Part shown: piece by piece, positions 3,968-4,255 of the stretch
Numbering within the stretch: the stretch's first letter is position 1
How the letters are laid out: every line of letters starts with the position of its first letter
Source: a virus
Lineage: Duplodnaviria > Heunggongvirae > Uroviricota > Caudoviricetes
Direction: 5' to 3' (one strand)
Length of the DNA: 11,490 nt
Virus record (IMG/VR): IMGVR_UViG_2778261058_000014
Location: 1 to 11,490 of that record
Notes under the pieces: generated by a model
Seen by the model: only the letters and a program-made list of their open reading frames with translations
What the model was told of the DNA's origin: nothing
Database searches by the model: none
Made by a program: the position numbers and the translations under genes

Positions 3968-4255
3968 TCACTGACTGCAATTTTTCGATCCAGGGTATTT
4001 CCTGAATGCCTTACCATTGGGCTGATGTAATCCCATCCCGGCATGTGCCCGGCTGATGGTTTCGCGCATCTCCCCGAAATTATCCTGCCTTGCTGGTGGG
4101 CGTGCTGCCTTGTGGATACATTCCGCGCGACGTTTTGCCGCCTGTTCCCGTGCCTTGTCATCATTCGCCAGCATGATGACCTCAGCCCACCGCGCCGCCG
4201 CTCTCCGGTACAGGCCACGCGCTTCCAGTGCTTCCGCTTTGCTGTCGTGAATCAT
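3968..4255 (-). CDS. PerC-family transcriptional regulator (PerC/Pch-like), 95 aa
   Basis: N-terminus MIHDSKAEALEARGLYRRAAARWAEV matches the PerC-family signature as I recall it. ATG overlaps the stop of the upstream gene (ATGA coupling). Confidence 0.7.
   Translation of the reverse strand: MIHDSKAEALEARGLYRRAAARWAEVIMLANDDKAREQAAKRRAECIHKAARPPARQDNFGEMRETISRAHAGMGLHQPNGKAFRKYPGSKNCSQ

What the first reader, a model, noticed from the sequence alone, without database searches (positions are those of the whole stretch)
3968..4255. PerC-family regulator carried by the satellite: potential link to host virulence regulation
PerC/Pch-type proteins are known activators of the LEE master regulator ler in EPEC/EHEC and are typically carried on horizontally acquired elements. 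One on a mobilisable satellite would spread a regulatory input together with the island.
Basis: partly seen in the sequence, partly recalled or inferred. Interest (0 to 1): 0.5.

Follow-up and report, generated by a model that had tools for sequence, protein, structure and literature searches.

The report
PerC-family regulator gene on phage satellite
The 95-codon gene really is a PerC/Pch-family regulator carried by an E. coli phage satellite (a PICI), but this is already annotated and published, and about 97% of the genomes that carry this version lack the LEE virulence island it was proposed to control.

Summary
Observation confirmed. ORF 3968-4255 (minus strand, 95 aa) matches Pfam PerC over its full length (E 5e-32) and keeps every residue invariant among PerC, PchA, PchD, PchE and two PICI homologues. 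The window is a typical Gram-negative PICI: AlpA, AntA, primase, iteron origin, then packaging genes.

The idea is not new. RefSeq names the gene, and three papers describe PerC homologues on PICIs. The tested ones either do not activate LEE1 or repress it.

This allele is only 33-50% identical to any tested homologue. It occurs in 208 of 5426 complete E. coli genomes, and only about 5 of these also carry LEE (27 expected by chance). A natural ler/LEE link is therefore not supported.

The gene is the last member of a GC-rich ProQ/FinO-PerC cassette, with overlapping stop and start codons, lying between the origin and two intrinsic terminators. It is absent from 44 of 68 sibling PICIs, so it is accessory cargo.

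The model shows a three-helix, TPR-like N-terminal domain with no recognisable DNA-binding fold. This domain overlaps the ANR (Aar) family model. The most likely mechanism, by inference, is remodelling of H-NS-type silencing complexes at non-LEE host promoters. Ordinary finding, low interest.

The parts
3968..4255 (-). PerC/Pch-family gene, 95 aa. The N-terminal ~50 aa form the conserved three-helix domain; the C-terminal ~45 aa are modelled with low confidence.
   Evidence: ORF; PF06069 E 5e-32; alignment A1; AF2 model with pLDDT 83-90 for residues 1-50 and helices at 5-13, 16-29 and 33-51.
4252..4794 (-). ProQ/FinO-domain gene immediately upstream. It forms a two-gene cassette with perC. The likely start is the second ATG, near 4782.
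   Evidence: PF04352 E 1e-23; RefSeq calls a 531-nt CDS in L001; all 18 primase-sampled loci that have ProQ also have PerC directly after it.
4252..4255 (-). ATGA overlap of the ProQ stop codon with the PerC start codon, which suggests translational coupling.
   Evidence: Read from the sequence. The same 4-nt overlap is seen in L008-L011 (ProQ 7480-8004, PerC 8001-8288).
3939..3962 (-). Intrinsic terminator 1, six bases after the perC stop codon: GCCGGG-ATTTTT-CCCGGC followed by TTTTTT.
   Evidence: Sequence. An equivalent hairpin with a T-run follows pchE, the CFT073 homologue and the L008 homologue.
3892..3924 (-). Intrinsic terminator 2: an 8-bp stem with 6 G-C pairs, followed by CTTTGTTTTT.
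   Evidence: Terminator scan. CFT073 also has a second hairpin here.
4798..5136 (.). PICI replication origin: 11-bp iterons (CCAACTGTCTAC), at least 7 direct copies plus inverted copies, flanking a stretch of 27% GC. A weak sigma-70-like site (TAGACA-16-TAGATT, 4899-4872, minus strand) could drive ProQ-PerC.
   Evidence: Repeats; composition; promoter scan, which found no more sites than shuffled sequence.
5164..6969 (-). PICI primase/replicase (D5_N, DUF5906, Pox_D5; P4-family primase C-terminal region).
10897..11085 (-). AlpA, the PICI master regulator or excisionase-type HTH protein.
   Evidence: PF05930 E 3e-18.
3594..3767 (-). Small gene downstream of the terminators; I judge it ribbon-helix-helix-like from its sequence. 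It is the first gene of the next transcription unit, which continues with the 197-aa ORF, DUF2213 and an HTH/TerS-like gene.
   Evidence: ORF; RefSeq CDS in L001; homologues follow perC in several genera. The RHH assignment is my reading; no profile matched.
3799..3844 (-). Two direct copies of TTTCAT-N3-TTGCAAT, 30 bp apart, just upstream of a CATAAT -10 element and the small downstream gene. This is neighbouring regulatory DNA and is not shown to be a PerC target.
   Evidence: The motif follows the small gene rather than perC.

Best explanation
The ORF is an intact PerC/Pch-family gene carried as accessory cargo by a phage-inducible chromosomal island.

It is the distal gene of a GC-rich two-gene cassette (ProQ/FinO-like RNA-binding protein, then PerC, with overlapping stop and start codons). 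The cassette sits between the island's replication origin and two intrinsic terminators, ahead of the packaging module.

The conserved N-terminal ~50 residues are predicted to form a three-helix, TPR-like unit with no recognisable DNA-binding fold. The same domain makes up the short ANR (Aar-type) proteins.

By homology, the protein most likely works in trans. It would bind to or compete with nucleoid-silencing complexes (H-NS/StpA/Hha), and possibly AraC-type regulators, at AT-rich horizontally acquired promoters of the host, changing their expression. Pch does this at LEE1 and Aar does it at H-NS targets.

In its natural hosts the targets are not LEE. Curli/csgD, flagella or fimbriae are plausible by analogy with PchE and PerC.

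Shown here: family membership, gene organisation, variable presence among related PICIs, and distribution almost entirely in LEE-negative genomes. Inferred: when it is expressed (read-through from the AlpA/primase operon and/or a promoter in the origin), its binding partner, its targets, and whether it activates or represses.
For: Identity: PF06069 E 5e-32 and all family-invariant residues present.

Organisation: ATGA overlap with ProQ; two terminators directly after the stop codon, conserved after pchE and after the CFT073 and L008 homologues; GC 0.60 for the cassette against about 0.50 for the island and 0.27 for the origin.

Accessory status: of 68 primase-sampled sibling PICIs with at least 2.5 kb of downstream sequence, 24 have PerC and 44 do not. 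PerC is present in 18 of 18 with ProQ, 6 of 27 with SSB only, and 0 of 23 with neither.

Distribution: 208 of 5426 E. coli genomes carry this allele and about 5 of them have escN/LEE. The same Int-AlpA-Pri-(SSB/ProQ)-PerC order occurs in 11 of 17 species-representative loci from six genera; a twelfth, truncated locus keeps SSB-PerC.

ANR link: every PerC-family protein tested gives a co-linear sub-threshold match to NCBIfam NF033650 (ANR), with EcCIMP1_025 at 31.1 bits against a cut-off of 32. The PerC profile retrieves 60-70-aa proteins at library-wide E-values of 1e-8 to 1e-12 that sit at or near the ANR cut-off. One of them, P0228, is named 'ANR family' by NCBI and also carries a PF06069 hit. 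These proteins share D4 A7 L10 E11 G14 R17 R18 A19 A20 R22 W23 R43 C46 with PerC.

Literature: Pch activates LEE1 only by relieving H-NS/StpA/Hha silencing (PMC4764244). Aar has three helices and no DNA-binding domain, binds H-NS and alters its DNA binding (PMC5570504). ANR proteins have a highly conserved cysteine (PMC4038620). PchE represses csgD/curli independently of Ler (PMC6265319).
Against: There is no experimental information on this allele.

Its own ANR score is far below threshold (14.9 against 32 bits).

Fukui et al. report, as unpublished data, that PchA did not co-precipitate with H-NS, and that Pch is found on DNA by ChIP. Direct H-NS binding is therefore not established for the PerC branch (PMC4764244).

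The fixed position at the end of the replication operon, and its presence in LEE-free genera, would fit a role in satellite or helper-phage biology equally well.

Among close alleles (93-95% identical) dN/dS is 0.4-0.95 on few substitutions, so constraint may be relaxed or specificity may be shifting.
Confidence: 0.55

Rival explanations
1. One reading: the protein activates ler/LEE1, as PerC and PchA-C do, so the satellite spreads an input into LEE virulence regulation.
For: It is a true family member, 44% identical to PerC and 42% to PchA, with all invariant residues present. PerC-like proteins can cross-activate LEE1 from either pathotype (title of Porter 2005, cited in PMC6092414). Fillol-Salom 2018 states that some PICI-encoded homologues activate LEE (PMC6092414).
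Against: About 203 of 208 carrier genomes lack escN/LEE, fewer co-occurrences than chance would give. The homologues in the same PICI slot are reported inactive on LEE1 (PchE, CFT073) or repress it (EcCIMP1_025) (PMC11773190, PMC6265319). The slot is also occupied in genera that, from general knowledge, have no LEE. The gene has neither the group-1 Pch context (lambdoid late region) nor its sequence.
Confidence: 0.07
2. Satellite life-cycle regulator. PerC would be made at the end of the induced replication operon and would switch on the island's late (packaging) unit, or alter helper-phage gene expression.
For: The position between the replication and packaging modules is fixed across alleles 33-100% identical and across six genera. 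It is co-transcribed with replication genes, with a terminator-plus-promoter boundary directly after it. In primase-sampled loci, the TTTCAT-N3-TTGCAA promoter motif occurs in 18 of 24 loci with PerC against 1 of 44 without.
Against: 44 of 68 closely related PICIs have no PerC, and in several the capsid gene follows SSB directly, so it is dispensable. The motif tracks the small downstream gene and not PerC. It is absent from many PerC-bearing PICIs (L003, L008, L015-L021), lies 8.5 kb away in EcCIMP1, and is present in the PerC-less locus L057. When the genes downstream of the EcCICFT073 origin were cloned singly, only c1503 (rpp) affected lambda (PMC6739421). pchE is expressed without induction, and SOS induction lowers it (PMC6265319).
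Confidence: 0.2
3. ANR-type anti-activator. The protein would mainly bind and inactivate AraC/XylS-family activators, giving net repression of virulence or fitness regulons, as proposed for EcCIMP1_025.
For: There is co-linear similarity to the ANR model, and some proteins satisfy both family models. EcCIMP1_025, 45% identical, silences LEE1 in C. rodentium (PMC11773190). Aar binds the linker of AraC-like proteins (PMC5570504).
Against: The score is only 14.9 bits on the ANR model. The protein has a conserved 45-aa C-terminal extension that the short ANR-like proteins lack. PerC and PchA, which share the same domain, are activators. No AraC-family gene is linked to it in the island.
Confidence: 0.13
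4. A decaying or functionless remnant carried along with the island.
For: dN/dS is 0.4-0.95 among close alleles, and presence among sibling PICIs is variable.
Against: The gene is intact and full length in 160 genomes, and 153 are at least 95% identical in nucleotide sequence. dN/dS is about 0.2 at depth. The invariant residues, coupled start codon and terminators are all conserved.
Confidence: 0.03

Closest known systems
PchE (ECs1588) of prophage-like element Sp7/OI-51 (EcCIEDL933), and the PerC-like gene of EcCICFT073
   Same: Closest characterised relatives, at 50% and 49% identity. Same element type and same slot: primase, origin, SSB or ProQ, PerC, terminator, packaging genes.
   Different: Preceded by SSB and not ProQ/FinO. 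Only half the residues are shared. PchE is reported not to activate LEE but to repress csgD/curli and affect flagella (PMC6265319, PMC7369912). Nothing is known for this allele.
PerC of the EPEC EAF plasmid (perABC operon)
   Same: Same Pfam family, similar length (89 against 95 aa), 44% identity, same invariant N-terminal residues.
   Different: Plasmid-borne, downstream of perA/perB in a virulence operon. It activates LEE1. PerB is unrelated to the ProQ/FinO neighbour here.
PchA/B/C (group-1 Pch) of EHEC lambdoid prophages
   Same: Same family, 42% identity. Pch is the only member with a worked-out mechanism: anti-silencing of H-NS/StpA/Hha at LEE1 (PMC4764244).
   Different: 104 aa with a longer C-terminus. 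Located next to the lysis and late region of lambdoid prophages or their remnants. Found in LEE-positive strains.
EcCIMP1_025 of PICI EcCIMP1
   Same: PICI-borne PerC-family gene, 45% identical. It is the only PICI homologue with a positive experimental phenotype (PMC11773190).
   Different: Sits at the far end of the island, after P22-like ejection-protein genes, and not directly after the replication module. It nearly reaches the ANR threshold (31.1 bits, against 14.9 here). It represses LEE1.
ANR family (Aar of EAEC; NCBIfam NF033650)
   Same: Three-helix domain of about 50 aa with the same conserved positions, including the cysteine. No DNA-binding fold. Acts on H-NS-dependent expression (PMC4038620, PMC5570504).
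   Different: ANR proteins are 39-80 aa with no C-terminal tail, and typically accompany AraC-family activators. This protein is far below the ANR cut-off.

Membership tests
PerC family (Pfam PF06069) | Full-length match to the family profile above the curated threshold | tested here: met
   110.5 bits against a cut-off of 22.6; residues 1-89 on model positions 1-89 of 90.
PerC family (Pfam PF06069) | Conserved N-terminal residues shared by PerC and PchA-E | tested here: met
   All 14 invariant columns of alignment A1 are present. Y16 R18 A19 R22 W23 are invariant across 66 homologues.
PerC family (Pfam PF06069) | Small single-domain protein (about 85-105 aa) on a horizontally acquired element | tested here: met
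   95 aa, on a PICI. The best 150 of 305 family clusters are 36-161 aa.
PerC family (Pfam PF06069) | Regulates transcription: activation of LEE1/ler, dependent on H-NS silencing | not testable with these tools
   Needs reporter assays. Indirect evidence is against LEE as the natural target.
Group-1 Pch (PchA/B/C) LEE activators | Close sequence similarity to pchA/B/C (the groups are defined by DNA similarity, size and function; PMC6265319) | tested here: not met
   42% amino-acid identity to PchA; 95 against 104 aa.
Group-1 Pch (PchA/B/C) LEE activators | Located in a lambdoid prophage next to late or lysis genes | tested here: not met
   pchA lies beside the endolysin and Rz genes of Sp4 and beside a plasmid-borne remnant of the same. 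Here the gene follows a PICI origin and ProQ.
Gram-negative PICI (EcCICFT073 type) | Tyrosine integrase at one end, and flanking direct repeats | tested here: met
   Shown on the 97.9%-identical copy L001: integrase at 18308-19537, and a repeat with the first 26 nt identical at 7179 and 19559, 12,380 bp apart. The window itself holds only the last ~43 nt of int.
Gram-negative PICI (EcCICFT073 type) | alpA next to int, transcribed with the downstream operon | tested here: met
   PF05930 E 3e-18 at 10897-11085, on the same strand as all island genes.
Gram-negative PICI (EcCICFT073 type) | Primase/replicase followed by an iteron-containing AT-rich origin | tested here: met
   Primase at 5164-6969; 11-bp iterons at 4798-5136 in 27% GC DNA.
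Gram-negative PICI (EcCICFT073 type) | About 10-15 kb, with no lysis or tail genes | tested here: met
   12.4 kb between the repeats. Only head- and packaging-related genes are present: DUF2213/protease-like and a TerS-like HTH protein.
Gram-negative PICI (EcCICFT073 type) | Induced, packaged and transferred by a helper phage | not testable with these tools
   Needs induction and transduction experiments.
ANR family (NCBIfam NF033650) | Score at or above the curated cut-off (32 bits) | tested here: not met
   14.9 bits, E 0.018, residues 6-52 on model positions 8-54.
ANR family (NCBIfam NF033650) | Three alpha-helices, a conserved cysteine, no DNA-binding domain | tested here: inconclusive
ANR family (NCBIfam NF033650) | Binds AraC-type activators and/or H-NS | not testable with these tools
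   Needs two-hybrid, pull-down or EMSA experiments.

The most novel reading that the evidence does not exclude
PF06069 (PerC) and the ANR family would be one superfamily of small three-helix modulators of nucleoid silencing, whose main genomic home in Enterobacteriaceae is a fixed slot in PICIs. The LEE activators PerC and PchA-C would be later exaptations of satellite cargo. In this island lineage the gene would work as a coupled ProQ/FinO-PerC cassette, pairing an RNA chaperone with an anti-silencer, that reprogrammes host or helper-phage expression when the satellite is resident or induced.
Probability: 0.25. Interest if true: 0.5.

Novelty: already known. Interest (0 to 1): 0.22.

Why it matters
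As submitted, the finding matters little. The gene is already named in RefSeq, and PICI-borne PerC homologues are already in the literature.

The useful outcome is a correction. A 'PerC family' label should not be read as 'LEE activator', because this allele lives almost only in LEE-negative E. coli. The family occupies the same satellite slot in genera that, from general knowledge, have no LEE.

If the wider reading holds, it would give a simple frame for why satellites, prophages and virulence plasmids all carry these small proteins. That reading is that PerC and ANR form one superfamily of H-NS-complex modulators, often paired with a ProQ/FinO protein. It would also suggest where to look for their real targets.

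Tried and rejected
(1) PerB of the EPEC per operon as a homologue of the ProQ/FinO neighbour, which would have made perBC a copy of the PICI cassette. Rejected: PerB matches only PF06590 and has no similarity to the ProQ protein.

(2) PerC as a core PICI gene. Rejected: 44 of 68 primase-sampled sibling islands lack it. Caveat: IMG/VR loci are partly redundant, so these counts are not independent events.

(3) PerC as activator of the conserved TTTCAT-N3-TTGCAA promoter downstream. The first count looked striking, 18 of 24 against 1 of 44. However, the motif follows the small downstream gene, is missing from many PerC-bearing PICIs, and is present in a PerC-less one. It occurs only at that promoter in the window. 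Not supported.

(5) Defence-system models (PADLOC) for PerC, ProQ, DUF4747 and neighbouring genes: no hits.

(6) Sequenced phages. Only 2 of 50,697 phage records give a tblastn match, so the family is not typical of isolated phage genomes.

(7) Porter et al. 2005 could not be read. Its results are quoted second-hand from PMC11773190, PMC6092414 and PMC6265319.

(8) The LEE co-occurrence figure is derived from unions of three searches and could be off by one genome. One place was lost between plus 47 (933 places) and (932).

Full report
**Observation.** The ORF list shows one ATG-to-stop reading frame at exactly 3968..4255 on the minus strand, 95 aa. It matches Pfam PF06069 (PerC transcriptional activator) at E 5e-32 and 110.5 bits, against a cut-off of 22.6, over residues 1-89 of a 90-position model. 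It also matches PHROG 994 at E 3e-35.

I fetched the reference proteins from public records: EPEC PerC from pMAR2, PchA, PchD and PchE from O157 Sakai, the EcCICFT073 homologue and EcCIMP1_025. The window protein is 44, 42, 33, 50, 49 and 45% identical to these, respectively. It keeps all 14 columns that are invariant among the seven proteins. Family membership is therefore confirmed and is far beyond chance.

**The element.** All substantial genes lie on the minus strand:
- AlpA (10897-11085)
- AntA antirepressor (10044-10844)
- DUF4222 (6966-7256)
- a P4/D5-type primase (5164-6969)
- a 27%-GC non-coding stretch with 11-bp iterons (4798-5136)
- a ProQ/FinO-domain protein (4252-4794)
- PerC (3968-4255)
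- a small gene, a 197-aa ORF, a DUF2213/protease-like ORF, an HTH/TerS-like ORF, and a DUF4747 protein

The best public match is a chromosomal island in E. coli FDAARGOS_1058 between smrA and abgR, at 97.9% identity and 86% coverage. There the island ends in a tyrosine integrase and is bounded by a direct repeat 12,380 bp apart. This is the architecture of Gram-negative PICIs described by Fillol-Salom et al. 2018 (PMC6092414). RefSeq already labels the gene 'PerC family transcriptional regulator'.

**What is already known.** Three papers in the searchable library discuss PerC on PICIs.
- PMC6092414 states that some E. coli PICIs encode PerC variants.
- PMC11773190 calls PerC-family regulators 'commonly found in PICIs'. 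It recalls that the EcCIEDL933 (PchE) and EcCICFT073 homologues had no effect on LEE1 fusions (Porter 2005). It shows that EcCIMP1_025 silences LEE1-lux in C. rodentium, whereas EPEC perC activates it.
- PMC13612085 lists PerC and ProQ among PICI accessory genes in Enterobacter.

In addition, PMC6265319 and PMC7369912 report that PchE represses csgD/curli and affects flagella, and that group-2 and group-3 Pch have little effect on LEE.

**The LEE link for this allele.** A megablast search with the 288-nt gene finds it in 208 of 5426 complete E. coli genomes, always on the chromosome. In every listed hit it lies next to a ProQ/FinO gene. The hosts include cattle, poultry, environmental and human isolates, and APEC IMT5155.

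The LEE ATPase gene escN is found in 697 genomes. A query made of both genes joined together finds 900 genomes. About 5 genomes therefore carry both, against 26.7 expected if the two were independent. More than 97% of carriers have no LEE.

In one-genome-per-species sampling, PerC genes occupy the same PICI slot in Escherichia ruysiae, E. albertii, Atlantibacter, Enterobacter, Kluyvera, Shimwellia and Buttiauxella. To my knowledge the last five genera do not carry LEE; I did not check this here. LEE control cannot be what maintains this gene.

**Core gene or cargo?** The position is very stable. In Sp7/OI-51, EcCICFT073, the L008-L011 islands and 11 of 17 species-representative loci, the order is Int, AlpA, (AntA), Pri, (SSB and/or ProQ), PerC; a twelfth, truncated locus keeps SSB-PerC.

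To avoid sampling by PerC itself, I sampled 80 IMG/VR loci with the primase. Of the 68 with at least 2.5 kb of downstream sequence, 24 have PerC and 44 do not. PerC is present in 18 of 18 loci with ProQ, 6 of 27 with SSB alone, and 0 of 23 with neither. In many PerC-less islands the capsid-like gene follows SSB directly. These loci are partly redundant, so the counts are indicative only.

PerC is therefore dispensable for this kind of island, and ProQ-PerC behaves as a unit. The unit has several features of a self-contained insert ('moron'):
- its own composition, at 60% GC against about 50% for the island;
- an ATGA overlap between the ProQ stop codon and the PerC start codon, also seen in L008-L011;
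- two intrinsic terminators within 80 nt of the stop codon, an arrangement conserved after pchE and after the CFT073 and L008 homologues.

The gene is under purifying selection at depth (dN/dS about 0.2). Among close alleles the ratio is 0.4-0.95, on few substitutions.

All seven PerC-family proteins give co-linear, sub-threshold matches to NCBIfam NF033650 (ANR family). The window protein scores 14.9 bits and EcCIMP1_025 scores 31.1, against a cut-off of 32.

A PerC profile searched against 1.84 billion representatives finds only 305 clusters. The best 150 are all 36-161 aa. Its 60-70-aa hits, at E 1e-8 to 1e-12, lie at or near the ANR cut-off. One of them, P0228, is named 'ANR family' by NCBI and also carries a PF06069 hit. 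These short proteins share the invariant PerC positions, including C46.

ANR proteins are described as three-helix proteins with a highly conserved cysteine and no DNA-binding domain. They bind AraC-type activators and H-NS, and they alter H-NS binding to DNA (PMC4038620, PMC5570504). Pch activates LEE1 only by relieving H-NS/StpA/Hha silencing (PMC4764244).

I therefore commit to this explanation: the protein remodels H-NS-type silencing complexes, or their partner regulators, at horizontally acquired host promoters other than LEE. The main caveat comes from Fukui et al., who mention that PchA did not co-precipitate with H-NS and that Pch is found on DNA by ChIP.

**Leads that did not hold.**
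- PerB is not related to the ProQ neighbour.
- A conserved pair of TTTCAT-N3-TTGCAAT repeats sits 30 bp apart upstream of the small gene after the terminators (3799-3844). At first it appeared to co-occur with PerC, in 18 of 24 loci against 1 of 44. However, it tracks the small gene. It is absent from many PerC-bearing PICIs, lies 8.5 kb from perC in EcCIMP1, and is present in the PerC-less locus L057. It is most simply that gene's own promoter and operator.
- Cloning the genes downstream of the EcCICFT073 origin one at a time identified only c1503 (rpp) as an inhibitor of lambda (PMC6739421). This argues against a phage-interference role for the PerC homologue.

**Verdict.** The proposed link to ler/LEE is not supported for this allele. 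The gene is best seen as accessory regulatory cargo of a PICI, paired with a ProQ/FinO protein, with unknown non-LEE targets. Interest is low. The only mildly new points are the strong depletion of LEE among carriers, the strict ProQ-PerC pairing, and the overlap between the PerC and ANR family models.

Noticed in passing
window 4798-5136: Replication origin of the island. An 11-bp iteron (CCAACTGTCTAC) occurs in at least 7 direct copies plus inverted copies around a 27%-GC core, between the primase and ProQ genes.
   Followed up: partly
window 3799-3844; also L004, L007, L014, L022, L023, L057, L112: Two copies of TTTCAT-N3-TTGCAAT lie 30 bp apart (the second copy is inverted in EcCIMP1). They sit upstream of a -10 element and a small RHH-like gene. 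The arrangement is conserved across PICIs of several genera even though that gene's product is only 46-70% identical. The protein that binds the repeats is unknown.
   Followed up: partly
window 2234-2905 and 2970-3563 (minus strand): Two adjacent ORFs match separate parts (115-328 and 402-544) of a single 545-position PHROG family (phrog_6216; DUF2213, weak similarity to head maturation protease). The protein is split in two here, or fused elsewhere. It may be a capsid-assembly or size-redirection function.
   Followed up: no
window ~8400-9773: This segment between the icd-like region and antA is missing from the best genomic match and is mosaic among sibling islands. It holds small plus-strand ORFs (8643-9119, 9189-9368, 9426-9608) with no family match. 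The 598-aa minus-strand ORF across it (8255-10051) looks spurious.
   Followed up: partly
window 1493, 1630, 1684 (plus strand): Three copies of (CAAC)TTGACACTTTTT lie within 200 bp, between the HTH/TerS-like gene and the 59-aa ORF (1227-1406). That ORF resembles the last gene of Sp7 and EcCICFT073. The repeats could be a packaging (cos/pac) or regulatory site.
   Followed up: no
window 1-894 and L001 7402-8001: A DUF4747 protein and an adjacent 199-aa protein occupy the integrase-distal end of the island, in low-GC DNA (33-40%), where PICIs often carry defence cargo. Neither matches a PADLOC model.
   Followed up: partly
window 1700-2227 (minus strand): A 175-aa protein with an N-terminal MerR/excisionase-type HTH and a weak match to terminase small subunit. 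There is only a 25-residue similarity (E 0.008) to the 144-aa EcCICFT073 HTH protein (C_RS07025). It may be an Rpp-like factor that redirects packaging.
   Followed up: partly
L112 (NZ_CP148430.1, whole record): A 12,152-bp circular 'plasmid' in PLSDB is an EcCIMP1-like PICI, with integrase, AntA, primase and PerC. It is presumably an excised or episomal satellite assembled as a replicon.
   Followed up: no
L008-L011, 8001-8288 and 12051-12353: Some E. coli islands carry two PerC-family genes: one in the ProQ-coupled slot and a second of 100 aa about 4 kb downstream.
   Followed up: no
L014 and L034-L043, between perC and the small downstream gene: In sibling islands about 2 kb of extra DNA sits between the perC terminators and the downstream promoter, where the window has about 200 bp. 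This junction looks like an insertion hotspot for cargo.
   Followed up: no
L006 42944-45812: pchD in Sakai SpLE1 lies directly after ibrA and ybdM (the latter ParB-N-like), not in a PICI replication module. This is a third type of genomic context for the family.
   Followed up: no
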